Assembly: GCA_000091205.1 (NCBI GenBank)
Contig: AP006501.2
Source of the DNA: Cyanidioschyzon merolae
Taxonomy: Eukaryota
Length of the DNA stretch: 64,000 nt
Strand: one strand, 5' to 3'
The position numbers and the translations under genes are program-made. Of this stretch, positions 24,913-60,200 are shown piece after piece. Each line of letters begins with the position of its first letter. Position 1 is the stretch's first letter. The notes below the pieces were generated by a model. The model made no database searches and was not told the DNA's origin. It worked only from the letters and a program-made list of their open reading frames with translations.

Positions 24913-24971
24913 TCACGCCGTTCGAAAGTCGAACGACGCGAACGGTGTACAGTAGTGGCGGCAACCGCGCC

Positions 24972-27377: not shown

Positions 27378-27794
27378 GCGCGTCGTGTCTCGTGACCACC
27401 TGATCCGGAGGTGCGCGTACCGACCGCGCTATACAAACGAAGAGCAAAAATGAATCATTAAATAGCGACGAGGTAACAATGTCTTTCTTCCTCTACGAGA
27501 AACGTAAAAAGGATGAAAGTTTTTCGTATTGTGGAAAAGTTTACCTTACAGGCGGAGGGTCCTGCGAGCTGGACGATTCTGCTAGGCTGGTGCTCGGTGT
27601 GCCTCTAAAGTGGCGGATGCTGTAGCGAGACCTGCGCAGCTCGTCCGCAACGCAGTTTTTTGGGACTAGGGGCAACAAAGCCGCGTCTGGGCGTCGCCCT
27701 GTTGCGGTGGTCTCCTAGTATATCGTTTCGCGCTGCCGCAGAAAGTACGTCCGTCAGCGCAGCTTGCAGACTCTCAGAACTATTATGTACTCCG

Positions 27795-28010
27795 AGACGA
27801 TGCCAGGTGCACCACGCCTCGAGCCGACGCCCTCAGTAGTATGGCAAAGCCGTTCTGTCTCCGTGCAGCATCCGCACCAGCGGTAGGCGCTACATCTGGT
27901 GCTGACGCCAGGCACTTGCTGCACGATAGAATGTACGAGACAACCTGTATATCCTCGAGGAAGTATAAGAAATGAAGCTTGAAGGTAAGTGCATCATAGT
28001 GGACGCTTTC
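27795..28010 (+). repeat. ~200-bp interspersed repeat, copy 1 (family also at 34738-34860 and, inverted, at 46005-46235)
   Basis: Nucleotide alignment by eye: 'cctcgagccgacgccctcagtagtatggcaaagccgttctgtctccgtgcagc...' matches the reverse complement of 46005-46235 and the forward strand of 34745-34860. Confidence 0.7.
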
Positions 28011-28335
28011 CCGAAAGCAAATATCCATCCCGCAATCTGGGATCCATGGTCAATATAAACGTCTTGTCATCGAAATATGCCTCCCGACTGGGGGACGCGT
28101 CAGCGTCGCAGCGCATCGCTGCTGGCGACCCGACGGCTGGACACGTTTCCTCTGCGTATCTGTGCCGCACGGCGCTGCAGTGCCTGGAGACTCCAAGAAG
28201 TGGGGTGTGCGTTTTGTTTGACGGATCGGTAGTGGTTGGGTGTGCTACAGTTCCACGAAGCAAACCGTTCTGCTTAGTTGTGTTCTCTCTAGAGTTCTTT
28301 CCGCGGAGGCCTGAGACTTAGCGAATTTATTTGTT

Positions 28336-28773: not shown

Positions 28774-30307
28774 GCAATTGGTCAGGGGTGTGCCATGCGT
28801 CTCGTGGCTCGATCAATAGACAGCTCACACCATCATGGACGATGTGGCCGAACTTGGAGTATCATATGGTTTGCGCCCCGTAGCGGGCAGCTCTGTGCTG
28901 CGTAGACAGGTCTCTCCGAACCGTTGCATATGTCATCCAGGATTTTGCATGTTATATATGAAGAACCCCTCCTGCAGATCGAGGAAAATCACCGTCTTCG
29001 GAACGCGAGTAGTAACCGGTCTGTTCCAGCTGTATGCGGATTGTCAGCCCGAGGTTTACTGGCAATAAATCTGGTGCTTTTCGGAAAATAGATTGAGCAT
29101 CTCGAAGGGTACATCGTAAATGCTGTATTTTCTGCATAAAGTTACATCAAAAACATGCCAAGTATCAGAGGCATAGCTCACGCCCCGGACCGTCTCAGTC
29201 TTAGCGGGATCTGCACCGGACCCTATCAGAAAGTTACTACGCACACTGGTGTATGCGTTGTCCGAAATTCGCCAACTCTACTTCCATAGTGCCGTACGGT
29301 GTAGAGGCGCGAAGCGTCCAATGAACCTGTGTGCGACAAGTCCAGCTCGGCCAATTTTCTGTGGCGCTGGGTACGTATCCACGCTTGTCGTACGTCGAAG
29401 GGCGGCTTTGCGATGCTTTCATTGATGTCGGCCCGAGGGATCGAGCACTCTGCCCCGTGCGACGTCATACTGAAGAGGGATCGTGTGGCTGGACGCATAG
29501 CGTTTCCGTCTTTGACATCATCACTCGTGTGACAGTTTTCAATAAACTCGAGACAGCTGATCTTCAGCATGCCTGGTTACTAGGACGCACCAAGCAACAC
29601 GTATGCCGTACCATTAAGAGACTGCCTTACAAAGCAGCAAGAAGCAGAAGCAAAACGCAGCCATACAGAAGGGTGGCGCTAGCGCTGGCAGTCCACAACA
29701 AACTTGGATGCTTCCAGCGAACTCAAACGGGTTACGCCTCCATTCTTCTCCGCGCACACAAGCAGCTAGCAGGGACAGTACGAAAGCTCCCGTTCCACGC
29801 GCGAAATAGACTACAAAAGGTTCTGCTTTATGATTATGATACTTGTTCTTGCCTTTATATGGAGCCGGCCGCTGCCGAATAAAAACTATCTACCGACAAG
29901 AGAACAGACTCTGCCAAGCTAATTCCAACTTCGGATGCACGTACTTGCCAACTGCGTTCAAGGGTTTTTCTGAAGACTGCACGTTGCGACTGCGGAGCCC
30001 GGCACCGCATCAGTACGCCAACTAGCGTTTTCATGGTGCAGAATCGATGAATATAGCTAGGCCAATGTCAAACTTCAATGCAACTGGTCCACGTACCGAC
30101 TTTGGGCGAAGAATCTAAAGCCTCGGCCTCATCCAATGTCATCAACGCCAGCATTTACGTATTTTTGCTGCGACTGGTCCCATTTTCTCCTTTTTTCTGG
30201 ATTACGATACGCTGGTCCCTCCTTTTGCTCAAGTTCCATTGTCAGTAGCCGAAAGACCTAGATGACGGCATTATATTTCCTTTTTCACCATTTTTGGAAG
30301 TTGCCCA

Positions 30308-31422
30308 TACAATTCATGCACAGGCGGCGGTTGCGACATGCGCGTCGTTTGCGATAAGGGAATCGTCTTGGCATACGGTCGCGCTGTACCCGCTGCAGGG
30401 GTGACACTTGAGACTGGTCAGGCGTTCCCTCAGATGCACACGAGCTCCCCGTCATCCTCCTCTTCCTCCAAGGGCCGCCCCACGGTACCTGAACGCTCCC
30501 CTCACCACCCGGTACATGCCCATGACGGGTGCAGAGTGCCCCCATGGGTGCCCGACTCCGTTGCGCGCTGTGCGCTACGTTTGCGTGCTTGTTCTGGGCG
30601 ATCCCCTAGGAGCGGACGTCGTACGCTCGACGTGCAAGCGCACCATGTTCCATTCGACAGAGCCTGTATGGAATGCAACGTTGTCCGTGGTGTAACGAGT
30701 GGCCGACGGAAAACCCAGGCTGGAGATTTGTTCGAGAAATTTGGATTTATGTTCACTCATTTCGTGCTAAGCTGCGACGCGTCCTCTACAGGAAGCGATC
30801 GCTACGATCGCTCAAGTTCGAGTCCATAACCGTATTCCGTGCAAAGAGAACAGACAGGAGCCTCTAAGGCATATTCCGTGGGACTTGTGATGCTTCATTC
30901 GAATGGAGCTTCCCTGATGTCCACAATAGGGGACGATTTGTCTTCGGAACGGAACCGATCATCGGACCTGAATCGGGCGGTGGTCTTTCAGCATGAGCTT
31001 GTGGGCACGTCGCCAAGGGACGACGCGGGCTACTACGTGCTCTCGTCGATCCATCGGCGCAAGTCGCTGTGCCCAACGAGCATCCTTGCAACAAAATAAG
31101 CGAAACCCCGGGAAGTCGGTGATTTGAGCACACTCCTGGCTGTCCAATTTGACAAGTAGAGGCTTGAACGTAAGCGTTGGATAATGGCATGTATTGATTT
31201 ACGAAAACTTGCTCTAAAGCGTCCTGAAAATGGCGATTTCGGTAACGTAACAAATTCCGGCGGCAGAGCGTCGTGTTTGCAAGTCCCAGAGGAAAACAAC
31301 GCAACCTTAAGCTACGGTGTAATCCTTACGCCCTCACTGCTTGAATTCGAGTGTGCAGGCTGTACACCTGGGAAGGGTTCGCAAAAAATCGCTAGCCAGG
31401 TACAGGGCGGGCGTTCAGTCTT
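30308..31422 (+). repeat. Inverted repeat arm 1 (~1.1 kb), partner at 33616-34727
   Basis: Identical ORF translations occur on opposite strands (30338..30829(+) = 34207..34746(-); 30864..31304(-) = 33753..34172(+)). Both boundaries were read by nucleotide comparison. The arms are near-identical apart from a few indels and SNPs. Confidence 0.9.
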
Positions 31423-32227
31423 GTACTTTAATCTGATACAGGCGCAGCATCGCAGCCGGGCGTGCTGTCGCCCTGATATGAACGCTCCTATACAGCCATC
31501 TGCTCGCGCTAGTTGCAGATTCCTCATCGTCGGGGAAGGTGCTCTTCTTCCAGGGAGCGGTCGATGCCTGCTGCAAATTCACTACGCCACACAGTTCCTC
31601 AAACGAAGACCAGCCATCCCTTACGCCCTCAATAATCGGGTTACTGACCCTACTCGCCAATGTGACCCTGAGCGGGCGCCATTCTGAGCGAGACCCGAGC
31701 GCTGCGTCTTCCGATCATGCGTGGGACAAACTCTCCCCACAGTTGTCCGTCGAGTGCCTGCCTGGGGCGCCACGATAACAATCGCTCGTGATGGCCCCAC
31801 CTCGGGATCGATGCTGCGCGTCATGGCACGCGTTTTACGTAGTGGCTGCCCCGGCGGCATCCCTGGGCTCACAGGATGACGCATGCACCCGCATGCACAA
31901 AGTCAGGCTCTGCACTAGAGGCTGAGATATCCGTATCCTCGCGTGGCCGGTTCAAAATACACGTATGTGCGCAGCGGTTACATGCGAGTGCCGCTTCGTG
32001 CATGAAGCAGCACCATCGCAAGCCTCCGGTGAGCCGCATTTCAGGACGTTTAAGAATCCGCTCTCGATGATTCCGGCAACCGGCTGGTGTACGAATCCTG
32101 GAGTTATTGCTGGAGAGGTTGCGGATGCTGTGGGCAAAGATGCCATGAACAGCGAAACTGCTGCCAAATTCGCGTACCGCGCATCGATGCTCTAGCGCTT
32201 CCTTAAACGACCACTGTTTTCTGCCGA

Positions 32228-33370: not shown

Positions 33371-33615
33371 GCGTAGAAGGTGCACAGCGCCCTTTGTTTC
33401 GGTTCAGTTATGGGCCAATTAGAAACCGTCTGAGCGCCCTCTGCTCCAGTCGATCTGAGCAACGCTGGGTCAGACAAAAATGTTTCTAAGCGTTGCAAAT
33501 GGCGTCGATGATCCAGTGCGCTGCGCGTCAGCGCGTGCTGAAGTGCTCGTTATTTGAGGACGAAAGCCATTCTGTGACTAGAGACATCTAAAGCCGTGGA
33601 ATAATAGAATAAAAG

Positions 33616-34727
33616 ACTGAACGCCCGCCCTGTACCTGGCTAGCGATTTTTTGCGAACCCTTCCCAGGTGTACAGCCTGCACACTCGAATTCAAGCAGTG
33701 AGGGCGTAAGGATTACACCGTAGCTTAAGGTTGCGTTGTTTTCCTCTGGGACTTGCAAACACGACGCTCTGCCGCCGGAATTTGTTACGTTACCGAAATC
33801 GCCATTTTTCAGGACGCTTTAGAGCAAGTTTTCGTAAATCAATACATGCCATTATCCAACGCTTACGTTCAAGCCTCTACTTGTCAAATTGGACAGCCAG
33901 GAGTGTGCTCAAATCACCGACTTCCCGGGGTTTCGCTTATTTTGTTGCAAGGATGCTCGTTGGGCACAGCGACTTGCGCCGATGGATCGACGAGAACACG
34001 TAGTAGCCCGCGTCGTCCCTTGGCGACGTGCCCACAAGCTCATGCTGAAAGACCACCGCCCGATTCAGGTCCGATGATCGGTTCCGTTCCGAAGACAAAT
34101 CGTCCCCTATTGTGGACATCAGGGAAGCTCCATTCGAATGAAGCATCACAAGTCCCACGGAATATGCCTTAGAGGCTCCTGTCTGTTCTCTTTGCACGGA
34201 ATACGGTTATGGACTCGAACTTGAGCGATCGTAGCGATCGCTTCCTGTAGAGGACGCGTCGCAGCTTAGCACGAAATGAGTGAACATAAATCCAAATTTC
34301 TCGAACAAATCTCCAGCCTGGGTTTTCCGTCGGCCACTCGTTACACCACGGACAACGTTGCATTCCATACAGGCTCTGTCGAATGGAACATGGTGCGCTT
34401 GCACGTCGAGCGTACGACGTCCGCTCCTAGGGGATCGCCCAGAACAAGCTCGCAAACGTAGCGCACAGCGCGCAACGGAGTCGGGCACCCATGGGGGCAC
34501 TCTGCACCCGTCATGGGCATGTACCGGGTGGTGAGGGGAGCGTTCAGGTACCGTGGGGCGGCCCTTGGAGGAAGAGGAGGATGACGAGGAGCTCGTGTGC
34601 ATCTGAGGGAACGCCTGACCAGTCTCAAGTGTCACCCCTGCAGCGGGTACAGCGCGACCGTATGCCAAGACGATTCCCTTATCGCAAACGACGCGCATGT
34701 CGCAACCGCCGCCTGTGCATGAATTGT
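33616..34727 (-). repeat. Inverted repeat arm 2
   Basis: Reverse complement of 30308-31422 (see arm 1). Confidence 0.9.
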
Positions 34728-34737
34728 GTGGACAGCA

Positions 34738-34860
34738 GCCGAACACCTCAAGCTGACGCCCTCAGTGATATGGCAAAGCCGTTCTGTGTCTGTCCTGCGA
34801 TCGCACCGGCGCTTTAGGAGCCATCGCTGACGCTCAAGGCGGGCTCGGCGCACGAAAGAA
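34738..34860 (+). repeat. ~200-bp interspersed repeat, copy 2 (partial), abutting the outer end of IR arm 2
   Basis: 'gacgccctcagtgatatggcaaagccgttctgtgtctgtcctgcgatcgcaccggcgct...' aligns with 27820-27930. Confidence 0.6.
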
Positions 34861-35417
34861 CTGGAAAACTGCACGGTGTCTTCGAAGGAAGCCCCGATGA
34901 GTGCAACTTGGAAGGAGGCGTAGCGATTGATGCTCCATCGTATGCTGGTATCAAGCGCACAATCGGGGATTCCCGGTCTGGGCAAACCCTCGATCAGAAA
35001 ACAGCTGGAGGCGGCGATATCGAGGACTGCAACGCTACGATCAATATCATTCAACTGCGTACAACCGCGTTGGACAGACAGGAGAGACCGGTATATGTAA
35101 AGCTGAAGATATGAAAGAGAAAAATGATCAGTAACAAGAAACTTGCAAAGGATGGTGTTGATGATATTGGAATAGGCCTAAACTTAAGAGTCTTTGCCCA
35201 AGTTCAGTGAGTGAATCCGTAATACTCTCATGTGACATGGGTGCGAAGAAGATCGGCCAACGTGCATCAACTGCCCGATGCGCGCCAAAATACGCGCGCG
35301 GACGCTGCTCGAACGCGCCTCGGTCGGCAATTTCCCGCGGCAAGCTTCTTCCCGCCTGGTACTCTCTGCCCTGCGTTGGCGTGTACCCAATATTCACAGA
35401 AGAGCCTTTGTGAAAAC

Positions 35418-38501: not shown

Positions 38502-38826
38502 TGAATCTAGGGTTTAAACTAGCCGCTTTCGTGTTCCTAGGAAAGAGTTTGTAGAAGAGTCCAACCAGCTTGCTCCGATCGTTGCAAGCAACCCGTTGGA
38601 AGCGATCTAGCTGGCGGGTCCAGGCGATTTGGCTTAGCCTGCAGCCTGCCTTTAACAACGATTAAAGGATTTGAGCACAATAAAACCTCAAGTAAAGCAC
38701 GCAAGCCTTTTCACGAAGCCGCTCACGTGGAATAGGAGTTCTGTAACAGTCTTTGCGACGATATGCACTTGCTCGAAGCGGCCGTCGCCGATCGATGGCA
38801 GGCGAGGCCGTCAACCACCCAAACCC

Positions 38827-41010
38827 GAGCGTCTCTAACATAGTCTGCTACCTCTATTATGTTCCACCGCAGGTGCGAGTCCTTTACGGCCTCTTCGCGG
38901 TTTACCGCAGATTCATTCGAAGCGCGTTCATCTTGAAGAAATACAGTATTCAAGGGGAAGGTATGCACGTAAAAGCCGAGGATCCTGGAGGACCGTCATC
39001 CCTGGCTGCCCGAAGAAAACGCAAAAAATCCTCTCATCGCCGATCATCGAGCGAAGACAAGCAAGTTACGAGGAAAAAAACAGAATAGGGGACACAGACG
39101 ATAAAAGGTGTTTGCTAGACGTGACAATGACGAGACTGTTGTGGCGCAGGGGGCGCGAGTACTTGGAATTCTTGCAATGTTGAGCTCCACCAGCGTCAAT
39201 GCACGCAAGGAGTTCGTGAATCGAGACGTGAACGCCGCCATCTATACCAAACGATGTGCGGTGCTGAAGAGGATACCCGAGGCGCTGGCGCGAGCCCGTC
39301 TTGTGAGGCAGCCTCTCAGGCTCGAGGTATACATGCAGAATCTGGAACTGATAGCAGGCGGCCGGTCAGACGAGAGAGTGAGGCGTCTGCGAGTGGGTGT
39401 CTATGTACCTATCATGGTCGTGAACCGCTGCTCGTTGTACCGACTATAAACTTAGAGCAGTGGATTCTGGAACAACTTTTCGAGGGCGCGCTTTTGTTTC
39501 GATTGCTTTTCTCGCAGGTGTTCAACCAAGCAATTGTGTACTTTAGGTTCGGGGGAAAGTCGCGAAACGTTTTGAGCTTTTTATGGCTTGCGTGCGCAAA
39601 CCGCCGTCATTCTGAACTGAAGGCAACGCAATCCGATAAAGTGCATGAATCAGCTGTCTCGTAGTGCCTGTTCCTAGAACTGCGCTCCAAAACGAGAACG
39701 TACCAGACGCCACCTACAAGCCTTGCTCGTTTTCAATCCGTTCCACTCCACAGTTCCGTTCAGAAAAAGCAGAGAAAAAACCACACGATATGAAGATTCT
39801 GTACCGTCGATACCGACGGTAATGAAGAGGCACGGGTGGACGACGCAAAAGCACGTTGCTCCGTGAGACCGTCGTACGTTGAACGAGACGCGCACACTCT
39901 CATACGCACACCCGCGATCGATTACATCATGAAAAGCGAGCGGTTACTACGGGACGGACGAGTGCTCGTCGCTCTCAATGAGACTTCATTCAGAGAAGCG
40001 TGCAGACCTGGACACGGGCGCCCTAACAGGGATCATCGATGTTCGCACACCAGGAACACGCGAGTATTCCGAAAAGATCAGCAGTAGCAGCAGCATGGAA
40101 ATCGTGTGGTCGCCTACTTTTCGCCAAACGGGCGGGATTGCCCAACAGCTCATTCGCGGTCGAGGCAGTCCCCAGGATGCAGAGCTGAAGTGGATGCCCT
40201 GCACGCTTGCTCCGGGGTGCGCCTTAGCGACCATGCGGCACATGCGGACGATATTGGGGCAGGGGCACAGCGAACCGCGCTGGGGCCGCCAACGGTTTCG
40301 GTTGTATAGGCCGAACTGGCGTGCAATCGCCTACGTGGTCAGTCAGTTGGACAAAGCATCGACAGACGTGTCGCATCGTTTGGTGGAGGACGAAGGCGCT
40401 CGACGTATTGCTGCGCGCAAAGCACGTACCCGTGTTCGTTGCGCGAGAGCGCACACCGAGTGCAGGAATCGATGCGGTACGTGCTCCCGTTGATGAGTTC
40501 AAAACGACGTATACGCATCACAAGCATGTGTGCACGCCGAAACGGGTAGAGAAGACGAATGTGAAACGGAACCTGATGCACGACGTGGTGTGCGGGAAGC
40601 GGGGCATCGTCAGGTAGCGACGAGGGTGCAGGTGAGCGGCTGGCAACGGCGTGATTCCCCGAGCAGCCACGCGTGCAAGCACATTCTGCGCGGAGACTTG
40701 GGCGTCTCAACGAGCACCCGGAAGCGTCTCGTGCTTCCGGAGCGTCCATCGGTTTTGCATGAAGCGAGCGCTCGAGGTAGTAATCGGTTCGACCTTCGCG
40801 GCGCCATGGTACTGGAACGCAGAAGGCTTGCGATGAAAAGAATCAGTGGCGGCGAGAGAGGGCTCTGGATTCCCGACTGGAGCTATGCACTGGTACGATA
40901 TGGATCAGCAATCGAGTGAGACTCGTGTACTCTCATATATACGCTGTGATTTGGATTCCCTGGCAGTTGGAGAAAGATCGTGCTGATATACTATCCGATT
41001 TTACTGCGGA
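38827..41010 (+). mobile_element. Copy B of the ~2.2-kb repeated non-autonomous element: a Fanzor 3' fragment (38835-39460) plus the 1.5-kb core (39461-41010)
   Basis: Near-identical to 56635-58824 inverted; the core is identical to 7264-8784. The ends were read from where the three copies diverge: left 'ccgagcgtctctaaca', right '...gatcgtgctgatatactatccgattttactgcggatat'. No target-site duplication is seen. Confidence 0.8.
39108..39449 (+). pseudogene. Fanzor/TnpB C-terminal fragment (RuvC-III) inside copy B
   Basis: 'ARVLGILAMLSSTSVNARKEFVNRDVNAAIYTKRCAVLKR...VRQPLRLEVYMQNLELIAGGRS' aligns with the intact copy's '[41 protein letters not shown]...[22 protein letters not shown]'. Confidence 0.75.
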
Positions 41011-41354
41011 TATGAAGCGAGATGCAACACAGTGTTTTGATATAAATCCGCGCATTCAAACCTATAGACTTTCAGATGAACTTTGACACTCGCAACACAA
41101 ATCTCGCTCGTTGGAGCTGCTCGACTCGCGGCGTCTAGCCTTCTCGAAACTGGAATGCGACTGCCGGACAGTCACAGTTGCAAAACGTTCGCTGCGAAAT
41201 CGGTCATTGGGACAGTATTTCCAACCATCCACGGCTATTTCATGTGCAAAAGCTCTCCAAGCCGTAGAATTTGCAGTGTTTTCTTTTTTATAGGCATGCA
41301 CATGAGCTTTCTTATTTTGACGCTCCAAAGAACTAGTGTCTGATTCGGCGATCG

Positions 41355-44399: not shown

Positions 44400-45908
44400 A
44401 ATTATCGCTCTTTACAGATTCCTTGGTTGAAGCAACCAGTCAATAAATAAAAATATATCGTCATTGGAACAAAAAATGTTTGTCGAACAGTGAGAGTAAA
44501 CATATAAACTCAAGCGCAGACGACTTCCAGCCATTTTTGACCGGGCACCTGCTATCGGTTTCAGCTTCTCCTTATACACTTCAAGCCTGAAAGGCAGCTT
44601 CACGAAGTTCTCTGGCGTCAGCTATGCGATTCTCGTCTTCAGCACCGCACATCGTCTGATGTTGATATCGGTTTCGAAGTCTCGGCTCACGATCTCCTTG
44701 CATACATTGCTGCTAGTTAACGTTATTTATGCAAGGGTTCCTTGAACTCGTGCCCTTTGTGCCCCTACAGTCTCGTCATCCTACTGTCGGGCAGACACCT
44801 TGCATCGCACATCTCTCATCGTCATCTTTTCCGTGGTCACTTGCTCCTCATCGCTCGATGGTCGCCAAGGAGAGAATTTTTCGCTTGTTCGTCGAACCCG
44901 CAGGCAAGGGGCCTCCAGGACCCTCCACTTCCATGTCCATAAGTTTCCTTTATACAGTATGGTCTTGAAAATGAATGCACCTCTTTATGAACTCAGGTGA
45001 GAAAATTCCTCAAGCGTGAAGCTCTTGCGTAGGAGAGACGAAATGTGCCCCAGTGTGTCGTCGTGTGCTGAAAGCTTCAGCGATTCGGCCAGCGGAGGGA
45101 TCATTACGTTTCACGATCCAAAACGGTCATTCGAAGACGTTGAATCACGGCAATTACGGAGGGATGAAAAGCTACTGTACCCAGGCAGGATCCGCAAATG
45201 CTCGAAACCAAGTCGAATTGTTAAATACCATGTTGATCAATGGAAGGACGTCGCCAGACGTCAGGAGTAAAGTCTTTAATGATTCCACAAACTTGGTGGC
45301 GCTGTTGTATGAGCCTTCTTCACTTGCGAAACTGAGGCCATCAAATGAATCCATTCCAGCTTGAACTGATGAAGATATCATCGTTCTCTTCGAGTACCTT
45401 CATGCATGCATCGGGCCCCCAGTCAGCGAATACCCATCCATGCCCCGATCGTTTTTCCGAAGAAGGTTTCATCGATTTGAAAAACATACCAATGTCTCTG
45501 TGCTTCATATCGATCGCAGCGTTCCGAGAATTCTGTCGTTGCGATTTCGGTGGAAGCTGACGTTCATTGAACTTTGACTTTCTTGTAAGCGTATCCTAGT
45601 GTTTTCAAGACTACACGAACAAACTGCTGAGTAACCGAGACGCCCGTGGAGACTTTCATCGTCCTTTTTGCTTTCCGTAAGGCGATTAACGGGACGTTTT
45701 CTACCACCGACAGCAGGCAATCTCCGAGAATATTGGTTTTTTGCCTGTAGTGTACATGCTTCTCTCCTTCCAGTGTTCCTGAACCATCTGAAACTGTGGT
45801 ATGACTGACCTGCAGAAGGAATGCAGTATTCCGTGTATTGCTCAGTAAAGAACATATACTGGGCATTTCGTCTACATTCTGTGGGGTATCTTGCCGGGCC
45901 ACTTCGAT
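44400..45908 (-). pseudogene. Degenerate Fanzor-like pseudogene (X1), interrupted at its 5' side by a retrotransposon insertion. Inverted paralogue at 58830-60200
   Basis: The 3' end translates (with frameshifts) to '...RLEVYKEKLKPIAGARSK'. Its nucleotide sequence aligns with 38960-39440 and with 59830-60200. The body, 44990-45910, matches 58900-59820 inverted. The section reading '...VTQQFVRVVLKTLG' recalls '...[10 protein letters not shown]' of the intact copy. Confidence 0.55.
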
Positions 45909-48900
45909 TTTTCTTTAATCACTGACGAAATGTTTACCTAAGCCAGCGTTCTCCGATTATGCGCATTTTTCGTTTCTTAATTTTTTTGTGTTTTTTGTCA
46001 GTGTGAGGTGGGATATCCATCAACCCCCTACCTCCATGTTACATTACCTATACTTCGTCTCGGATATTCTGGTCGTTTCATGCGTCCTATCGGGTGCCGA
46101 GCCTGCCGAAAGCGACAGCAATAGCGCCTATAGCGCCGGTGCAGTCGCTGCACGGAGACAGAACGGCGTTGCCGTACCACAAAGAGCGTCTGCTCGAGGT
46201 GTGCTTCACCCGACGTAGAATCGGGTCTCGTCGTCAGTTTGTGCTCGGATAGTCTGCAAATGCAGGCTTGCCTTCGCTGCAATACACGCTGTAGAAACTT
46301 GGCTGTTAGGATATATCCTGAGAGCCGCCTCTCTCCTTCGTGATCATGCATGGAATGCGTTGTTGTCGGTTGGCAATGCGGGTTTGTGCTTGACACCCAT
46401 CACAGTGGGTAGGCACAAAGAGCACTAAACCCGTGTGCTCATCCGATTCGTTGGACCTGCTGCCTAGAAGGTAGAGTTTGAGTTTATTGGCCACTCATGA
46501 GCGCTGAGGCTCCGTTAGCGCACCATCAGTTGCCAGTGCTACACTCAGAGTGAGTGTCCGGCCTTCGACAATCACGGTGATGTCCAGCTGCTGCTGTCCT
46601 CCAAGGAACTCGCTGCGCTCCTGCTTCGAGCGCGGGCACTGTAAGCTTAAATATGTCAGCGTCTCGGGGATTTCGTCTCGATAGCAGGTACAGTGTGACT
46701 CCCAGTGCGGTTCCAGTGTTCCCGTACGGAGTAGAGCCGGTGCTGGTAGCCAGAAGCCACCAACGCGGATTTTGGCGAGCCACTGGGTACCGCGAGCAAG
46801 TCCCGGGAATTCCAGCGCCTCCCACCAGTACTTGCTTGTGTATGCTAGGTTGTAGTTCCGGTATAGAGTCAAGCCGGCGTTACTGGCGCGACTGGTACCG
46901 TGTCTACCTTCCCATATTGGCGTTCGGACCGTTCGCTAGAGGCGGCGGGAGCCTTGTACATTTCTGGGGAACGATTGGAGCGCATTTTCGCGTAAGAGGC
47001 GCTTTAGCCAAATCTGCGCTGATTTCATCCAAGTTTTCTTGCGGTGCGTTGGGGTCTGCATGAAAATCCGACTCAAAGGGGTGCGCATAGTGGGCCCTTT
47101 GGCCCGTATACATGCCCAGCAGCCTGCTGCTATCGCTTCTATCGAGGCTATTTGGAGTTCAAGTCCGAGTGCCAGCGGGTTGGTTGCTCTGCGCTGCATT
47201 GAGCATCCAACAACAACAACGAGTCGCATTGCCCTGTTGGCAGCTGTCTGCAGACGCGAGGCATTTGTGTGCTTCATGCCGCACCATTCAGCACCCCAGG
47301 TCGAAGGCTGGATGATACACATCCTTAGTGCCCTCGTACGGATTGCTAAGGGGATAGAGGGGTCGGATGGGAATGGGCGTGCGATCGCTGTACGTCTATG
47401 CATCTTGGCGATCATCTCGTCGACGTGAGCCTTTTCGTCGAGCGTCGGCGTGAGACAGACCCCCAGGTAGCGATATTTTTCCACGATCGGAATTTCCTGA
47501 TTCTGCAACCGCCATGAGCGATTGCGAATGCTCTGTGAGTCTCCATGGATGACCATGGCGCCGCACTTCAATGCTCCTATGTTCATAACCCAGCGATCGG
47601 CCCAGGCGCTGACTTGTTGCATGCTAGCCGCAAGCGTTTCCGGGGCGGGTGCCAACAGCACGACGTCGTCGGCAAGTAGAAGGCCTGCGAGGCGGTTTCT
47701 ATGTGAGGGCTCCTCATCGGGCATCTCCACAGTCTATCCACGGCACCTCAAGTCCGTATTGTCTGCGGTTGTTCAGCAGATCGTTGATGAAGATGTTGAA
47801 AAGGCGCGGGGATGCGCGGTCGCCCTGTCGCAGTCCACGGCGGATTCTTATCGAAGGGGTTCTTGAGCAGTCGCCCAGTCGGGTGCACATCCACGAGTCT
47901 GCATAGAGCGCACGGAAGAACGCTAAGCACTTTCCGGAGACTCCGGCACGTTCCATCTTCAGAAATGGAGCCTCGTGCGGGACCGTTTCAAAGGCCTTTT
48001 GAAAGTCGATGAAGCATACGTAAGTTGGTTGTTGGCAGCTAATGGAGCGACGTTGCACCACTTCAATGAAGGTCAGGTCATGGCTCATGTACTCCTCGCG
48101 GCTCCGGAATCCAGCCTGTTCTGGGGCGAGGAATTTGCGTTCCTCGAGGCCCCTCTGAGTCCGGTTCGTGAGGTTGGCGCAAAGTAGCTTCATGATTTAC
48201 GGGATGAGGCGCATAGTCCGGTAGATATTCATGTCTGTGGGGTTCGGAGTCCTTTTTGAGGATCGGTACGACCTCGGCAGTCCTCCATACATCTGGGATG
48301 TACGCTTCTTCGAACATGCGTTGGATGAGCTCCAGAAGGCGCTTGCCTAAGATTGTGTCAGGTTCATCTGGTATCGATAGTGTCCCTGTTGTCTCGTCTT
48401 TTGGGGTCGCCAGTTTCATCCACTCCGTAGGGATACCGTCAAAGCCAGGTGTTTTGCGGTTGCATGACCTTAAGAGGGTCCGGACAGATTCAGGCCAGAA
48501 GATTGGGTCGTTCCATACCGGTACCGGGTCGAGGCGCGGTAGTTCTGCAGCATATTGGTGCCAATAGATTGGGTCTTGGCAGTGCCCAGTTGCGTCTTCA
48601 TGCAGCTCTGTCCCGTGGTCTATCCAGGCCTCATTCACTGAGGCACTCTCCGTCCTCAGCGCTTCCTTATAAACAATTGGTGTGAGCCCCAGGCACTTTC
48701 TTGGTGGGTCCAGTCTCGATCGAATGGAGCGCCATGTCTCATCTTCGTTGGTGCTCTCCAGCATAGATTTCGCCAGGGAGGCGATTCTGCGATTTCGATC
48801 CTCCTGTTTGTCTTCTCTGGAAAGTTTCTTCTTTCTTTTGATAGCTTCCTCATGTTGTGCCTGTAGCGCCGTTAGGACTGCCTTCGCTTCCTTGTCTCCG

Positions 48901-50981
48901 GCGTTGGCGCGTATGGCGGTGCGGTTGACGATCTTGTTGAGTCGGTGGCATCCATCAATCTGTGCTTTTTTACGTCGTTTCAGGTACTGAGGTTTGCAAC
49001 TGTTGCGTTCTGGTGCAAGCAGTCCCAGTTCTCTGGCAATCTTCTGATTCCCATCTACATACTCGCGTGCCAATTGGTCAAAAGATTTGTATGCACGGCT
49101 TTTCGGATCTTCAACGCTGTGAGCAGGTGCCTGGGTTTGGCGACGGCTTTCTTGAGTTCCAGCTGGGGTGCCCTCTCGGGGGATACCTTGTGATGAGCTC
49201 ATTTGGGAGTTCTTTTTTCTATTCTTCTGTTTTTTTCTTGCTGGTCTTTTTCTTCTTCGGGCTCTTTCCTGAGCTGCTTTCTCTGGTTATTCTTCTGGTA
49301 CGTGGATCATGATGCCAGCGTGTCTATCCTTCCGTATCGCCTTGAGTCTCTTTTCCTATTGTAGATCACTCTATTGTTGTCTCTTCTTCGTTAATGTACT
49401 GATAATTCGTTATCTTTTCTCGGAAGGCTGCAAGTGACTTGTTGGTTAGTATCCGGGCTTGGTATGTTGAGGGTGCAATTGCTGGTAACCCTCGCTGTGC
49501 GCTCTGAGTCGTGTCGGCTACTGGTTCAGCATTTTGGTTCCTCGGGCGCGGGTACCATCTGCAGTGGATGGGCCAGTGATCTGAGGCATCCCAAATTCGG
49601 TCAACGGCGGTATGTTGGAGTGCCGGGTCGCATCGGTCGCTTAAGATGTGGTCTATCGATGAGCGAAGCAAACGTTGGTCGGTAATGCGGTGCCACGTCA
49701 GGGGTGAACCTCTACACGGATTCACCGACAGCAATCCGCATCTCATTCGTTGTAGGTGTTGCCTAAGGTGGCCCGCCGACATGTTAAAATCTCCCATAAT
49801 TATCATCGGTTCCTCATTCCGTGTGCGGCGTTTCAATCGCTGGATGTTGGAGGCCAACTCTTTGAGTGCCTGTCGGCGCATCTCACAGGCGTGTGGTATA
49901 TAAATGGAGCCCACAAGCCAAGGTGCAGGCTGACCTGGAATTGTAACACTCACAAAGACCATCCATGGAGACGGGTTGCCGACCGCATAGCAAGTGAGGC
50001 GTCGATCGACAGTGAGCGCAACACCACGTGTGCGTAACGAAGTTGGCTTGTCCGTAGGGTCTACGTACGTTGGTTCAACCGTGTTGTAGCCTGGGATATG
50101 CAGACGATAATACGTCTTTGTGTTCTCTGAGTGTAGTGTCTCCTGCAATGCCAGGATATGGACGTCTCAGCGTTCCAGGAAGTACCTTACGTCGTCTAGA
50201 ATCGAGGCTACCCCCAAAAATTTTCCATGATGCGAAACCTATCGAGTCGTAGCGCGTAAGGGAATAGGAATAGCGCTGCGGTACTCGAGAGATACGTTGT
50301 CGATTGAGATGCACCCTCCACGGCGTGTGAGAACGCACATGCCACCATTGCCTCCTGCATTCCAGTCGTTCAGTGAGTGTCTGCCGCAGCGCTAGCGTAG
50401 AATCAGATGTACATTAGTCAAAGTCGATTCGAATGCGACCTTTATCTTGCCGGACGCGTGAAGCTCCCCTCAATCACTGGGGATACGCTATGAACCACCC
50501 TGTCAGCGGCTTCGTATCCGCTCCCCAAATACATAGGCGGGCAAGTCGCTTATTCCAGCTTCGATCGCGAACATACTGCCAGCCGTCTTCCAAAGTATCC
50601 GCCGAAATTGTTCCCAAAGTTGAGGTAGGTACCCAATGTAGGAGGTAAACCGGAGCCCGAGTTTAAGGATCGATCCAAGATTTGCGCCCGAACCTGCAGC
50701 GTTGATTCGGGAGGGGCGGATAACTGCTCAGAATTTTCGTCAGCTTTTTCTGCTGCTGCTGCCTCCGCCCCTCCGTTCGTTGCGGTCAAGGTCCCTGGCG
50801 TGGGCTTCCTTCGCCGTCGCCCAAGCACCCCGTGTTTACCCACTTTCAGAGCTTCTCCGGAAAAACTAGACCTCTTAAGCAGGCATGGTGTGTGGGTCTT
50901 TAAGATAGTTGTTCTTTAATAAATAGTTTGCGACTAGTTTGTTTTGTTGTTTTTTATGTACGTTACGATTTTTTTTTCATT
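45909..50981 (-). mobile_element. Non-LTR retrotransposon (LINE) with APE-type endonuclease and reverse transcriptase; frameshifted and probably inactive. Flanked by a 15-bp target-site duplication
   Basis: APE/EEP domain 49366..50148(-) with 'MQETLHSEN', 'IIMGDFN', 'SDHWPI'. RT 46936..49202(-) with 'KTPGFDGIPTEWMKL', 'IPDVWRTAEVVPILKK', 'QAGFRS', 'FIDFQKAFETVPH', 'GLRQGDRASPRLFNIFINDL', 'LLADDVVL'. The ORF segments overlap out of frame. The direct repeat 'ccgggccacttcgat' occurs at 45894-45908 and at 50982-50996. Confidence 0.85.
46005..46235 (-). repeat. ~200-bp interspersed repeat, copy 3, embedded near the 3' side of the LINE
   Basis: Its reverse complement aligns with 27795-28010. Confidence 0.65.
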
Positions 50982-51189
50982 CCGGGCCACTTCGATCTCA
51001 AGCTATTCACCGCATCGAGGTTGAAACAAAATTCAGCTGGAAAAATATAATGCTGTAGGTGTTGCAGCCTTTTTGGCGTCCCGTCTTACGCAGCAGACTC
51101 TAGGTTGTCATAGGCTTTCGGAGGCACTCGCAGAACGAGCGTCATCTCGGTAGACAAATCAGTCTCAACTCCTCAATTTCTAGACGTGC

Positions 51190-56634: not shown

Positions 56635-58824
56635 CTCGTATATCCGCAGCAAAATCGGATAGTATATCAGCACGATCTTTCTCCAACTGCCAGGGAATCC
56701 AAATCACAGCGTATATATGAGGGTGCAAAAGTCTCACTCGATTGCTGATCCATATCGTACCAGTGCATAGCTCCAGTCGGGAATCCAGAGCCCTCTCTCG
56801 CCGCCACTGATTCTTTTCATCGCAAGCCTTCTGCGTTCCAGTACCATGGCGCCGCGAAGGTCGAACCGATTACTACCTCGAGCGCTCGCTTCATGCAAAA
56901 CCGATGGACGCTCCGGAAGCACGAGACGTTTCCGGGTGCTCGTTGAGACGCCCAAGTCTCCGCGCAGAATGTGCTTGCACGCGTGGCTGCTCGGGGAATC
57001 ACGCCGTTGCCAGCCGCTCACCTGCACCCTCGTCGCTACCTGACGATGCCCCGCTTCCCGCACACCACGTCGTGCATCAGGTTCCGTTTCACATTCATCT
57101 TCTCTACCCGTTTCAGCGTGCACACATTCTTGTGATGCGTATACGTCGTTTTGAACTCATCAACGGGAGCACGTACTGCATCGATTCCTGCACTCGGTGT
57201 GCGCTCTCGCGCAACGAACACGGGTACGTGCTTTGCGCGCAGCAATACGTCGAGCGCCTTCGTCCTCCACCAAACGATGCGACACGTCTGTCGATGCTTT
57301 GTCCAACTGACTGACCACGTAGGCGATTGCACGCCAGTTCGACCTATACAACCGAAACCGTTGGCGGCCCCAGCGCGGTTCGCTGTGCCCCTGCCCCAAG
57401 ATCGTCCGCATGTGCCGCATGGTCGCTAAGGCGCACCCCGGAGCAAGCGTGCAGGGCATCCACTTCAGCTCTGCATCCTGGGGACTGCCTCGACCGCGAA
57501 TGAGCTGTTGGGCAATCCCGCCCGTTTGGCGAAAAGTAGGCGACCACACGATTTCCATGCTGCTGCTACTGCTGATCCTTTCGGAATACTCGCGTGTTCC
57601 TGGTGTGCGAACATCGATGATCCCTGTTAGGGCGCCCGTGTCCAGGTCTGCACGCTTCTCTGAATGAAGTCTCATTGAGAGCGACGAGCACTCGTCCGTC
57701 CCGTAGTAACCGCTCGCTTTTCATGATGTAATCGATCGCGGGTGTGCGTATGAGAGTGTGCGCGTCTCGTTCAACGTACGACGGTCTCACGGAGCAACGT
57801 GCTTTTGCGTCGTCCACCCGTGCCTCTTCATTACCGTCGGTATCGACGGTACAGAATCTTCATATCGTGTGGTTTTTTCTCTGCTTTTTCTGAACGGAAC
57901 TGTGGAGTGGAACGGATTGAAAACGAGCAAGGCTTGTAGGTGGCGTCTGGTACGTTCTCGTTTTGGAGCGCAGTTCTAGGAACAGGCACTACGAGACAGC
58001 TGATTCATGCACTTTATCGGATTGCGTTGCCTTCAGTTAAGAATGACGGCGGTTTGCGCAAGCAAGCCATAAAAAGCTCAAAACGTTTCGCGACTTTCCC
58101 CCGAATCTATAGTACACAATTGCTTGGTTGAACACCTGCGAGAAAAGCAATCGAAACAAAAGCGCGCCCTCGAACAGTTGTTCCAGAATCCACTGCTCTA
58201 AGTTTATAGTCGGTACAACGAGCAGCGGTTCACGACCATGATAGGTACATAGACACCCACTCGCAGACGCCTCACTCTCTCGTCTGACCGGCCGCCTGCT
58301 ATCAGTTCCAGATTCTGCATGTATACCTCGAGCCTGAGAGGCTGCCTCACAAGACGGGCTCGCGCCAGCGCCTCGGGTATCCTCTTCAGCACCGCACATC
58401 GTTTGGTATAGATGGCGGCGTTCACGTCTCGATTCACGAACTCCTTGCGTGCATTGACGCTGGTGGAGCTCAACATTGCAAGAATTCCAAGTACTCGCGC
58501 CCCCTGCGCCACAACAGTCTCGTCATTGTCACGTCTAGCAAACACCTTTTATCGTCTGTGTCCCCTATTCTTCTTTTTTTCCTCGTAACTTGCTTGTCTT
58601 CGCTCGATGATCGGCGATGAGAGGATTTTTTGCGTTTTCTTCGGGCAGCCAGGGATGACGGTCCTCCAGGATCCTCGGCTTTTACGTGCATACCTTCCCC
58701 TTGAATACTGTATTTCTTCAAGATGAACGCGCTTCGAATGAATCTGCGGTAAACCGCGAAGAGGCCGTAAAGGACTCGCACCTGCGGTGGAACATAATAG
58801 AGGTAGCAGACTGTTAGAGACACT
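56635..58824 (-). mobile_element. Copy C (inverted) of the ~2.2-kb repeated non-autonomous Fanzor-tail element
   Basis: Reverse complement of 38827-41010 at ~98% identity. The same set of ORF translations appears on opposite strands. Confidence 0.8.
58204..58545 (-). pseudogene. Fanzor/TnpB C-terminal fragment (RuvC-III) inside copy C
   Basis: The translation is identical to 39108..39449. Confidence 0.75.
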
Positions 58825-58829
58825 CGGGA

Positions 58830-60200
58830 CTGTGCCAGATCATATGCTTTCAATCCAATTTCGTTTCAGCCTCTGCTGCAGCGTATAGCAAGATATCGAA
58901 ATCACTATTGAATGAGCCCTGTAGATCGTAGTCGAATTGCCTGTAGGATATATTCTTTACTGAGCAATACACGGAATACTGCATTCCTTCTGCAGGTCAG
59001 TCATACCACAGTTTCAGATGGTTCAGGAACACTGGAAGGAGAGAAGCATGTACACTACAGGCAAAAACCAATATTCTCGGAGATTGCCTGCTGTCGGTGG
59101 TAGAAAACGTCCCGTTAATCGCCTTACGGAAAGCAAAAAGGACGATGAAAGTCTCCACGGGCGTCTCGGTTACTCAGCAGTTTGTTCGTGTAGTCTTGAA
59201 AACACTGGGATACGCTTACAAGAAAGTCAAAGTTCAATGAACGTCAGCTTCCACCGAAATCGCAACGACAGAATTCTCGGAACGCTGCGATCGATATGAA
59301 GCACAGAGACATTGGTATGTTTTTCAAATCGATGAAACCTTCTTCGGAAAAACGATCGGGGCATGGATGGGTATTCGCTGACTGGGGGCCCGATGCATGC
59401 ATGAAGGTACTCGAAGAGAACGATGATATCTTCATCAGTTCAAGCTGGAATGGATTCATTTGATGGCCTCAGTTTCGCAAGTGAAGAAGGCTCATACAAC
59501 AGCGCCACCAAGTTTGTGGAATCATTAAAGACTTTACTCCTGACGTCTGGCGACGTCCTTCCATTGATCAACATGGTATTTAACAATTCGACTTGGTTTC
59601 GAGCATTTGCGGATCCTGCCTGGGTACAGTAGCTTTTCATCCCTCCGTAATTGCCGTGATTCAACGTCTTCGAATGACCGTTTTGGATCGTGAAACGTAA
59701 TGATCCCTCCGCTGGCCGAATCGCTGAAGCTTTCAGCACACGACGACACACTGGGGCACATTTCGTCTCTCCTACGCAAGAGCTTCACGCTTGAGGAATT
59801 TTCTCACCTGAGTTCATAAAGAATTGTGCTCATTTGAAAATATGTAAAACCCAGGAGACGAGCTGGGGGTGTACAGTTTTGAGGTGGAAATGGAAAAAGA
59901 GCCAGCGGAGCGTTTTAGCGATAGCGAAGCATGGGGAGCTGACGGAGCACCGAATGTCACGTAGGGCACGAGTTCGAGGACTACTTTCTCTGGTGATTTC
60001 CTCCAGCGGCAATTTACGCACTGAGTTCGTGAGCCGAAACTTCAACGTCGCTATCAATATCAGGAGATATGCGGTGCTGAAGACGAGCCCCCAAGACCTG
60101 ACGAAATCTACCTTGGTATTGTAGCCTCTCAGGCTCGAAGTCTACATGGAAAAAGTGACACCATTATCAGGAAGCCGATCACGTTAAGGCGGAGAGGTGT
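58830..60200 (+). pseudogene. Degenerate Fanzor-like pseudogene (X2), uninterrupted paralogue of X1. It ends ~250 bp upstream of ORC1
   Basis: 'RGLLSLVISSSGNLRTEFVSRNFNVAINIRRYAVLKTSP', then after a frameshift 'PLRLEVYMEKV...'. The body 58900-59820 is the reverse complement of 44990-45910. It sits head-to-head with the Fanzor fragment of copy C. Confidence 0.55.

What the first reader, a model, noticed from the sequence alone, without database searches (positions are those of the whole stretch)
45894..50996. LINE nested in a Fanzor pseudogene with a perfect 15-bp TSD and an in-window empty-site paralogue
The direct repeat 'ccgggccacttcgat' flanks a 5.07-kb minus-strand insertion carrying APE and RT domains. 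The paralogous X2 copy (reverse complement of ~58840-58900) has the uninterrupted site. That site reads '...tcattcaatagtgatttcgat|atcttgctatacgctgc', to be compared with 'tcattccgggccacttcgat' + insertion + 'ctcaagctattcaccgc'. This gives a textbook target-primed reverse-transcription insertion and a relative dating: the X elements are older than the LINE insertion, which is older than its frameshifts. There is no strong poly(A) tail; the 3' end is '...gattaaagaaaa'.
Basis: seen in the sequence. Interest (0 to 1): 0.6.

Follow-up and report, generated by a model that had tools for sequence, protein, structure and literature searches.

The report
Old LINE insertion inside Fanzor-element remnant
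A 5.07-kb decayed LINE retrotransposon of the red alga Cyanidioschyzon merolae sits between perfect 15-bp target-site duplications in the non-coding leader of a decayed Fanzor-type repeat, which is an ordinary, already catalogued kind of insertion; the one unexpected by-product is that this LINE's 3' tail also forms the end of the alga's abundant Fanzor repeat family.

Summary
CCGGGCCACTTCGAT occurs exactly twice in the window (45894-45908, 50982-50996). It brackets a 5,073-bp minus-strand non-LTR retrotransposon with APE endonuclease, RT (ADD motif), a C-terminal Cys knuckle and a short A-rich tail.

The window is C. merolae 10D chromosome 19, whose 26 non-LTR copies and ~150 Fanzor1 'CMe-1A' repeats are published. 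With the LINE and one 15-mer removed, the flanks align without a gap to two uninterrupted paralogues (window 58930-58829, metagenome L036).

- The host is an internally deleted Fanzor1-like remnant. The LINE lies in its leader, about 955 bp upstream of the residual ATG.
- The quoted 'tcatt' is the LINE 5' end, not flank.
- At least two of four frameshifts are shared with paralogous copies, so they predate insertion.
- The 97-aa ORF has no support as ORF1.
- The RT clade stays unresolved.

By-products:
- Most other sampled copies (4 of 4 that span the region) share one in-frame APE deletion.
- The LINE 3' UTR is the reverse complement of CMe-1A/TE-N2_CMe positions 1-540.
- Head-to-head Fanzor-LINE composites recur.

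This suggests, but does not prove, LINE-dependent mobilisation of the Fanzor repeats.

The parts
45894..45908 (.). Target-site duplication, copy next to the LINE 3' end (CCGGGCCACTTCGAT on the + strand).
   Evidence: Exact 15-mer, one of only two in the window.
45909..45920 (-). Short A-rich 3' tail of the LINE (sense ATTAAAGAAAAA).
   Evidence: Sequence. Other copies end at the same point with A10, A6 or A5 tails.
45909..46494 (-). LINE 3' UTR. Positions 46479-46010 are the reverse complement of CMe-1A consensus 540-61, and it contains the conserved motif CCTCGAGC.GACGC..GGTA.GGCAA.
   Evidence: Local alignment 337/444 identical, score 293 versus null 38.6 +/- 6.4. The homology starts sharply at the ORF stop. 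The motif is also present in the LINE relatives L137 and L140.
46495..50362 (-). Remnant of one long APE-RT ORF, colinear with aa 129-1266 of an intact 1376-aa relative. It carries four frame changes (2>3>1>2>3) and at least 3 in-frame stops.
   Evidence: tblastn of P0078 and P0080; six-frame translation.
49416..50242 (-). APE endonuclease domain (IGFASW ... HILALQET ... GDFNM ... SDHWPI). The block 49416-50189 is deleted in-frame in all other sampled copies.
   Evidence: Pfam Exo_endo_phos 5.1e-09; motif coordinates; identical deletion junction in L014, L015, L016 and L006.
46936..48290 (-). Reverse transcriptase domain (FIDFQKAFETV 48013-47981, RQGDRASPRLFNIFINDL 47836-47777, LLLADDVV 47682-47659). 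Inherited frameshifts lie at 48246-48243 and 47723.
   Evidence: Pfam RVT_1 4.4e-12.
46636..46692 (-). C-terminal Cys knuckle CTCYRDEIPETLTYLSLQC. Relatives have CxxC..ET..H....C; here H is replaced by Y.
50363..50981 (-). LINE 5' region, mostly untranslated. The first ~28 nt (AATGAAAAAAAAATCGTAACGTACATAA) are absent from other copies, whose homology starts near position 29-41.
   Evidence: Alignment of six 5' regions.
50550..50843 (-). 97-aa GTG-initiated ORF proposed as ORF1. Not supported.
   Evidence: No Pfam hit; stops or indels in L015, L006 and L014; variable sites by codon position 24/23/34.
50982..50996 (.). Target-site duplication, copy next to the LINE 5' end.
44508..45893 (-). Host repeat X1, left part. 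It comprises an internally deleted Fanzor1 remnant (aa 645-729 at 44759-44508; aa 1-23 at 44940-44872) and a ~950-bp non-coding leader.
   Evidence: tblastn with the CMe-1 protein, E 1.2e-17; blastn to the CMe-1A consensus.
50997..51045 (-). Host repeat X1, terminal ~45-70 bp beyond the LINE. Homology to X2 and L036 ends here.
58829..60193 (+). Paralogue X2 with an uninterrupted site. The equivalent of the 15-mer is 58909-58895, and the junction point lies between 58895 and 58894. Fanzor1 aa 614-723 lie at 59867-60193.
44969..45875 (.). 907-bp block 98.5% identical to the reverse complement of 58928-59835, inside otherwise 65-71% identical X1/X2. It ends 18 bp before the TSD.
   Evidence: Self-BLAST.

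Best explanation
A copy of the C. merolae APE-type non-LTR retrotransposon family inserted by target-primed reverse transcription into the non-coding leader of an older, internally deleted Fanzor1-type repeat (X1). This family is annotated in strain 10D as 'retroelement'.

Inferred steps. The endonuclease nicked the bottom strand at 5'-...CTTCGAT/CTCAAG-3'. The LINE RNA was reverse-transcribed from its short A-rich 3' end. A second nick 15 bp away on the other strand produced the 15-bp duplication.

The inserted RNA already carried at least two frameshifts in the RT region. It was therefore probably copied in trans by protein from an intact element. It has since drifted about 3-4%.

Shown: the element's anatomy, its boundaries, the TSD, the uninterrupted paralogues, and the frameshifts shared with other copies. 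Inferred: the nick order and mobilisation in trans.
For: - TSD unique in the window.
- APE and RT Pfam domains on the minus strand.
- ORF colinear with the intact 1376-aa relative P0078.
- 3' end coincides with the ends and A-tails of independent copies.
- Two 5'-truncated family fragments in L115 have their own 12-bp and 14-bp TSDs after short A-rich tails, so 12-15-bp TSDs are a family property.
- The joined flanks align to two uninterrupted paralogues without an indel at the junction.
- Environmental C. merolae-like contigs carry both junctions at 99% identity: right junction in L004 and L006-L011, left junction in L062.
- Frameshifts shared with paralogous copies.
- Copies are star-like, about 92% pairwise identical. 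The window copy is 4.3% from the consensus, 2.7% of it private.
- Literature: 26 non-LTR copies in this genome (PMC1955436).
Against: - No empty allele of this very locus was found. Every environmental contig at the locus carries the LINE, so the empty site is inferred only from paralogues that are about 65-70% identical near the site.
- The nick site is not T-rich, and only one base (A/T) can pair with the tail.
- The first ~28 nt at the 5' junction are not shared with other copies. The exact 5' end of the transcript is therefore uncertain; these bases could be filler DNA.
- Full-length copies in metagenome contigs (L016, L132) show no TSD, although such contigs may be chimeric.
Confidence: 0.9

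Rival explanations
1. The LINE and the X1 repeat form one composite mobile unit, like the head-to-head Fanzor-LINE composites seen in other contigs. Under this view they moved together and the LINE did not insert into X1.
For: Contigs L014, L015 and L132 each show rc-CMe-1A joined directly to a LINE 5' end. The CMe-1A consensus itself ends in LINE 3' UTR sequence.
Against: Here the TSD brackets the LINE alone. X2 and L036 have the same repeat without a LINE at that point. The orientation differs: LINE and Fanzor remnant are co-directional here but head-to-head in the composites. X homology continues for about 45-70 bp on the far side of the LINE.
Confidence: 0.04
2. The insertion was endonuclease-independent: a LINE cDNA was captured at a pre-existing double-strand break, and the 15-mer repeat is coincidental or arose from repair synthesis.
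For: The nick site TTCGAT/CTCAAG is not a typical T-rich APE target. Most sampled family members lack the APE domain. About 28 nt of non-family sequence sit at the 5' junction.
Against: The clean 15-bp duplication with no loss of target sequence relative to two paralogues is the signature of staggered nicks. Other family fragments have 12-14-bp TSDs. This copy itself carries an APE domain.
Confidence: 0.05
3. The 15-mer pair is a chance repeat, and the LINE reached this position by ectopic recombination or gene conversion between LINE copies.
For: About two exact 15-mer pairs are expected somewhere in 64 kb (my estimate). The region shows recent homogenisation: a 98.5% block ends 18 bp from the TSD.
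Against: The two copies sit exactly at the independently defined LINE ends. The flanks align to the paralogues with exactly one copy of the 15-mer.
Confidence: 0.01

Closest known systems
C. merolae 10D class I elements ('retroelement, alive'; 26 non-LTR copies, Nozaki et al. 2007, PMC1955436)
   Same: Same family. The annotated 348-aa RT fragments P0050 and P0052 are 85-88% identical to this copy's RT. The window is chromosome 19 of that genome.
   Different: In the papers I read, the nested position, the TSD, the APE-plus state of this copy and its 3' UTR relation to CMe-1A are not described.
APE-type LINEs with a C-terminal Cys knuckle (L1/Tx1-like architecture); TPRT as shown for R2Bm and human L1
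   Same: APE, then RT, then a CxxC..H....C knuckle in one long ORF. Variable 12-15-bp TSDs, 5' truncation and an A-rich tail.
   Different: - No recognisable ORF1.
- The nick site is not TTTT/AA.
- The tail is only 5-12 nt in C. merolae, although relative L138 has A27 or longer.
- By phmmer the RT is no closer to human L1 ORF2p (48 bits) than to R2 (52 bits).
- The nearest relatives are unnamed red-algal or hot-spring sequences.
Fanzor1 element CMe-1A and TE-N2_CMe (Bao and Jurka 2013, PMC3627910)
   Same: The host X1/X2 carry Fanzor1 C-terminal (RuvC-III, NRDxNAAxNI) remnants about 50% identical to CMe-1. A full-length CMe-1A copy lies at 24916-28072.
   Different: The X leader is unrelated to the CMe-1A leader. 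X1 lacks aa 24-644.
Stringent-type LINE/SINE partners that share a 3' tail (e.g. UnaL2/UnaSINE1; from my own knowledge)
   Same: CMe-1A/TE-N2_CMe positions 1-540 equal the reverse complement of this LINE's whole 3' UTR, down to the terminal GTAAAC..TTT..TC motif and the A-rich run.
   Different: The partner would carry a 2.2-kb protein gene (Fanzor1) antisense to the shared tail. No TSDs were seen on the two complete copies examined. No pol III promoter was looked for.

Membership tests
APE-type non-LTR retrotransposon (LINE) | Apurinic/apyrimidinic-like endonuclease domain N-terminal to the RT | tested here: met
   Pfam Exo_endo_phos 5.1e-09 and Exo_endo_phos_2 2.7e-06. Colinear with the APE of P0078.
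APE-type non-LTR retrotransposon (LINE) | Non-LTR-type reverse transcriptase with an xADD catalytic motif | tested here: met
   RVT_1 4.4e-12. LLLADDVV at 47682-47659. PDB hits are only R2 and L1 RTs.
APE-type non-LTR retrotransposon (LINE) | Target-site duplication flanking the insertion, A-rich 3' end, no terminal repeats | tested here: met
   15-bp TSD; tail ATTAAAGAAAAA; no LTR or TIR found by the repeat finder.
APE-type non-LTR retrotransposon (LINE) | Family members that are 5'-truncated but share the 3' end | tested here: met
   135-bp and 281-bp 3' fragments with their own TSDs in L115. Fragments in L023, L070 and L134.
L1 clade specifically | RT phylogeny places the element inside L1 (RTclass1/Repbase references) | not testable with these tools
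   No reference LINE library was available. phmmer against PDB does not separate L1 from R2. Database relatives are unnamed.
L1 clade specifically | ORF1 protein upstream of ORF2 | tested here: not met
   The only upstream ORF (97 aa, GTG start) has no domain hit and is broken in several copies. Intact relatives encode a single 1376-1384-aa ORF starting about 230-280 nt from the contig start.
L1 clade specifically | T-rich nick site (TTTT/AA) and long poly(A) | tested here: not met
   The deduced nick site is TTCGAT/CTCAAG. Tails in C. merolae copies are 5-12 nt.
Fanzor1 element (host X1) | Encodes a TnpB-like protein with RuvC-I D, RuvC-II E, zinc finger and RuvC-III D | tested here: not met
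   Only aa 1-23 and aa 645-729 (RuvC-III region) of CMe-1 are detectable. It is a remnant, not a gene. CMe-1 itself gives no Pfam or PDB sequence hit, so its Fanzor status rests on PMC3627910.
Fanzor1 element (host X1) | Belongs to the CMe-1A family (DNA similarity to the consensus along its length) | tested here: not met
   Only consensus 871-937 and 2903-3093 match, at 72-81%. The leader shows no significant similarity. X1 belongs to a related but distinct family (X1, X2, L036).
LINE-dependent non-autonomous retroelement (proposed for CMe-1A / TE-N2_CMe) | 3' end shared with the partner LINE | tested here: met
   rc consensus 540-61 equals LINE 3' UTR 4503-4972, 76% identical, score 293 versus null 39. 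The terminal motif aligns to the last base before the tail.
LINE-dependent non-autonomous retroelement (proposed for CMe-1A / TE-N2_CMe) | A-rich tail after the shared 3' end | tested here: met
   Five of six CMe-1A-type ends are followed by A-rich runs (AAAAGCAAAAAA, AAAAGAAAAA, AAAA, AAATA, GAAGAGAATCAAAACA). One end has none.
LINE-dependent non-autonomous retroelement (proposed for CMe-1A / TE-N2_CMe) | Target-site duplications flanking whole copies | tested here: not met
   No TSD around the full-length copy 24916-28072, nor around the L085 copy. Bao and Jurka also found none.

The most novel reading that the evidence does not exclude
The abundant Fanzor1 repeats of C. merolae (CMe-1A, about 150 copies) and TE-N2_CMe (about 70 copies) may not be DNA transposons. 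They may be LINE-dependent retroelements.

What points that way:
- They terminate, antisense to the Fanzor gene, in the complete 3' UTR of this LINE family followed by a short A-rich tail.
- Longer head-to-head 'Fanzor unit + LINE' composites exist: L015 (APE-deleted LINE), L014, and L132 (mini-LINE).
- The tail motif is intrinsic to the LINE lineage, because it is also present in Galdieria-like and other relatives.

If so, an RNA-guided nuclease gene is being spread by a retrotransposon's machinery. A 2026 review states there is no evidence for this (PMC13565253).

A bolder sub-reading, at about 5% probability, is that Fanzor supplies the nuclease for the APE-deleted LINE subfamily.
Probability: 0.35. 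Interest if true: 0.75.

Novelty: already known. Interest (0 to 1): 0.35.

Why it matters
The insertion itself is a clean teaching example of TPRT in a genome famous for having almost no transposons. It adds little beyond the published count of 26 non-LTR copies.

Its value is as a reference copy. It is the only sampled family member that keeps the APE domain, has both ends and has a perfect TSD, so it defines the family's true termini. That definition exposed two things:
- The 'unclassified' left end of the Fanzor1 repeat CMe-1A and all of TE-N2_CMe are LINE 3' UTR sequence.
- Most other sampled LINE copies (4 of 4 that span the region) share one in-frame endonuclease deletion.

If the Fanzor repeats are indeed mobilised through the LINE tail, this would be the first case of a Fanzor carried by a retroelement. 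It would also bear on what Fanzor nucleases do for their hosts, since retroelements are never excised.

Tried and rejected
1. **Empty allele of this locus.** Ten environmental contigs around the FKBP gene all carry the LINE. L005 and L006 look rearranged or chimeric.

2. **Metagenome scan.** About 108 of the 120 loci returned were random hits. Twelve were useful.

3. **RT clade.**
   - phmmer against PDB gives R2 and L1 equal scores.
   - The APE has no informative PDB hit.
   - Two large protein searches returned only unnamed relatives.
   - Literature searches found no clade assignment.
   - The clade is left unresolved.

4. **ORF1 hypothesis.** Rejected.

5. **'retroelement, alive' proteins.** P0050 and P0052 could not be located on contigs.

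6. **TE-N2_CMe as a mini-LINE with a LINE 5' end.** rc consensus 657-536 against LINE 13-140 is colinear but not significant: score 36 versus null 29 +/- 5.

7. **Strand-specific RNA structure in the shared tail.** RNAalifold gave no convincing structure in either orientation.

8. **TSDs on other elements.** None were found for X1, X2, the full-length CMe-1A copy, L085, L016 or L132.

9. **Fanzor check by Pfam and PDB sequence search.** No hits for CMe-1.
Full report
**Origin of the window**

Four intact genes in the window are exact matches to Cyanidioschyzon merolae 10D proteins BAM82739, BAM82742, BAM82743 and BAM82744. They lie on a 1,282,939-bp record, which is chromosome 19 (table in PMC11050394).

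Two published facts about this genome are relevant:
- It holds only 26 non-LTR retrotransposon copies (PMC1955436).
- It holds about 150 copies of a ~3.2-kb Fanzor1 repeat, CMe-1A. That repeat's first 635 bp equal another repeat, TE-N2_CMe. Both are described as lacking TIRs and TSDs and as being of unknown class (PMC3627910).

**The observation**

CCGGGCCACTTCGAT occurs at 45894-45908 and 50982-50996, and nowhere else even with two mismatches.

The 5,073 bp between the two copies encode the following on the minus strand:
- an APE endonuclease (Pfam Exo_endo_phos, 49366-50148);
- a reverse transcriptase (RVT_1, 47714-48193 and 46936-47730);
- the motifs FIDFQKAFETV, RQGDRASPRLFNIFINDL and LLLADDVV;
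- a C-terminal CxC..ET..Y....C knuckle.

Against an intact 1376-aa relative (P0078), the coding region is colinear from aa 129 to aa 1266. It runs through frames 2>3>1>2>3 and has at least three stops. It is therefore one long, broken APE-RT ORF.

The 3' end is ...GTGATTAAAGAAAA(A). Independent copies end at the same base with A10, A6 or A5 tails. The first ~28 nt at the 5' junction are not shared with other copies.

**Is it an insertion?**

I removed the LINE and one 15-mer, then aligned the joined flanks to the reverse complement of 58930-58829 (X2). The alignment has no gap at the junction. The right flank alone is significant: score 29 against 15.0 +/- 2.1, with 0 of 2000 shuffles reaching it.

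A third paralogue, in metagenome contig L036, is also uninterrupted. All three share TTCGAT immediately before the junction. Homology among them stops about 45-70 bp beyond it.

Two 5'-truncated fragments of the same LINE family in L115 have their own 12-bp and 14-bp TSDs after short A-rich tails. Duplications of 12-15 bp are therefore a family trait.

Environmental C. merolae-like contigs carry both junctions at about 99% identity. No empty allele was seen.

The deduced first nick is TTCGAT/CTCAAG, which is not T-rich.

**The host**

tblastn with the published CMe-1 Fanzor1 protein finds two pieces in X1, both on the minus strand:
- aa 645-729, the RuvC-III region, at 44759-44508 (E 1e-17);
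- aa 1-23 at 44940-44872.

The LINE lies about 955 bp upstream of that residual start codon, in a leader that is unrelated to the CMe-1A leader. The host is thus an internally deleted member of a related Fanzor1 family (X1, X2, L036). The coding remnant is not interrupted by the LINE.

X1 and X2 are 65-71% identical, except for a 907-bp block (44969-45875 versus 59835-58928) that is 98.5% identical. That block ends 18 bp before the TSD. It looks like recent gene conversion that stopped near the heterology created by the LINE.

**Dating**

Five copies of the RT region are star-like, about 92% identical pairwise. The window copy is 4.3% from the majority consensus, of which 2.7% is private. This makes it younger than the X repeats and older than the 98.5% block.

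Two of its four frameshifts predate the insertion:
- The 4-nt insertion at LINE position 2736 (window 48246-48243) is shared with L015.
- The +1 at position 3259 (window 47723) is shared with L014, L015 and L016. Only L135 is in frame there.

The inserted RNA was therefore already defective and was presumably mobilised in trans.

**ORF1 and clade**

The 97-aa ORF fails as an ORF1 candidate:
- It starts with GTG.
- It has no domain hit.
- It is broken in several copies.
- It shows no significant codon periodicity.

The clade could not be assigned. The RT scores equally against R2 and L1 structures. The closest database relatives are unnamed sequences from hot-spring and other samples, plus the red alga Rhodosorus. 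The intact relatives are single-ORF APE-RT proteins of about 1380 aa, and one of them has an A27-or-longer tail.

**By-products**

1. *APE deletion.* All other sampled copies (L014, L015, L016, L006) share one identical in-frame deletion of the APE domain (window 49416-50189). The window copy is the only APE-plus example seen.

2. *Shared 3' UTR.*
   - Using the CMe-1A consensus from the paper's supplement, the LINE 3' UTR from the base after its stop codon (position 4503) to position 4972 is the reverse complement of consensus 540-61. Identity is 76%, and the score is 293 against a null of 39 +/- 6.
   - By eye, the similarity continues past an A-rich block of about 30 nt that only the LINE-type tails carry, as far as the terminal GTAAAC..TTT..TC motif.
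   - Five of six CMe-1A-type ends are followed by A-rich runs.

3. *Composites.* Three paralogous contigs show rc-CMe-1A (ending near consensus 650-730) joined head-to-head to a LINE 5' end. The LINE part is an APE-deleted LINE in L015 and L014, and a 5' UTR + 3' UTR mini-LINE in L132.

4. *Conserved tail motif.* GAGCCGACGCC..GGTATGGCA is also present at the ORF end of a Galdieria-like relative (L137), and in similar form in L140. The tail therefore belongs to the LINE lineage, and CMe-1A acquired it.

Together these results suggest that CMe-1A and TE-N2_CMe are mobilised through the LINE tail. Two points count against this. No TSD was found on the two complete CMe-1A copies examined. The metagenome contigs may also be chimeric.

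**Verdict**

The finding is correct in its essentials and ordinary in kind. It is an old, dead-on-arrival LINE copy, with a textbook TSD, in the leader of an older Fanzor-repeat remnant in a fully published genome. The interesting lead is the LINE-tail/Fanzor-repeat relationship, which needs a whole-genome census.

Noticed in passing
window 45909-46494 versus CMe-1A consensus 1-540; full CMe-1A copy at window 24916-28072 (-): The left end of the published Fanzor1 repeat CMe-1A (and hence TE-N2_CMe) is the reverse complement of this LINE's whole 3' UTR, down to the last base before the A-rich tail. Five of six such ends are followed by A-rich runs.
   Followed up: partly
L015 1793-7053; L014 391-6299; L132 245-2983: There are recurrent head-to-head composites. 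rc-CMe-1A, ending near consensus 650-730, is joined directly to a LINE 5' end. The LINE part is an APE-deleted LINE in L015 and L014, and a 1.2-kb mini-LINE (5' UTR 41-683 plus 3' UTR 4501-5058) in L132.
   Followed up: partly
window 49416-50189 (present here); deleted in L014, L015, L016, L006: All other sampled LINE copies share one identical in-frame ~774-bp deletion of the APE endonuclease domain (junction CTAGACGACG|AGATATCGAATTACCAG). This implies an amplified endonuclease-less subfamily.
   Followed up: partly
window 44969-45875 and 58928-59835; contig L062: A 907-bp inverted block is 98.5% identical inside otherwise 65-71% identical repeats, which suggests recent gene conversion. L062 joins the LINE/X1 side to the X2/ORC1 side. 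That is what an inversion between the two blocks would give, or what an assembly chimera would give.
   Followed up: partly
window 38824-41013, 56640-58828 (rc), 7260-8800: There are 99%-identical repeat copies. Each contains an internally deleted Fanzor1 remnant plus a 1.5-kb unit. That unit encodes a second, very divergent Fanzor-like stretch, 27% identical to CMe-1 aa 523-692 (8060-8563, 40254-40757, 56896-57399).
   Followed up: no
window 30302-31425 and 33610-34734 (inverted, 99.4%); 34735-35001: A 1.1-kb inverted repeat flanks the RNA-methyltransferase gene. One copy abuts a 5'-truncated LINE/TE-N2-type tail fragment that ends in AAAA. This could be a template-switch chimera. No TSD was found.
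   Followed up: partly
L137 4341-4373; L140 2597-3393; L138 4436-4743: The 3' UTR motif GAGCCGACGCC..GGTATGGCA and the terminal GTAAAC..TTT..TC are conserved in LINE relatives from organisms with 43-59% GC. L140 has a second 3'-UTR-only unit directly behind the first. L138 ends in A27 or longer.
   Followed up: partly
L115 3923-4056 and 9867-10147: Two short 5'-truncated LINE tail fragments have clear TSDs: CGATCCCGCACC (12 bp) and CATC(G/C)GGTGCTGAT (14 bp, 1 mismatch).
   Followed up: yes
window 51016-51049; 58856-58829 (rc); L036 ~5140-5175: The outer end of the X-family repeats (GAAAC.AAATT....TG followed by an A-rich run) loosely resembles the LINE 3' terminus. It is too short to test.
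   Followed up: no
L005 2586-3268: One environmental contig at the FKBP locus has an inverted, 88.6%-identical second copy of the LINE 5' region abutting the resident LINE, with a GlmS-like gene upstream. This is either a rearrangement or a misassembly.
   Followed up: no
window 17603-18018 and 1-232: There is a solitary Fanzor1 C-terminal fragment (aa 646-729, 50% identical). At the window start there is a TE-N2/LINE-tail fragment ending in AAAAGAAAAA.
   Followed up: no
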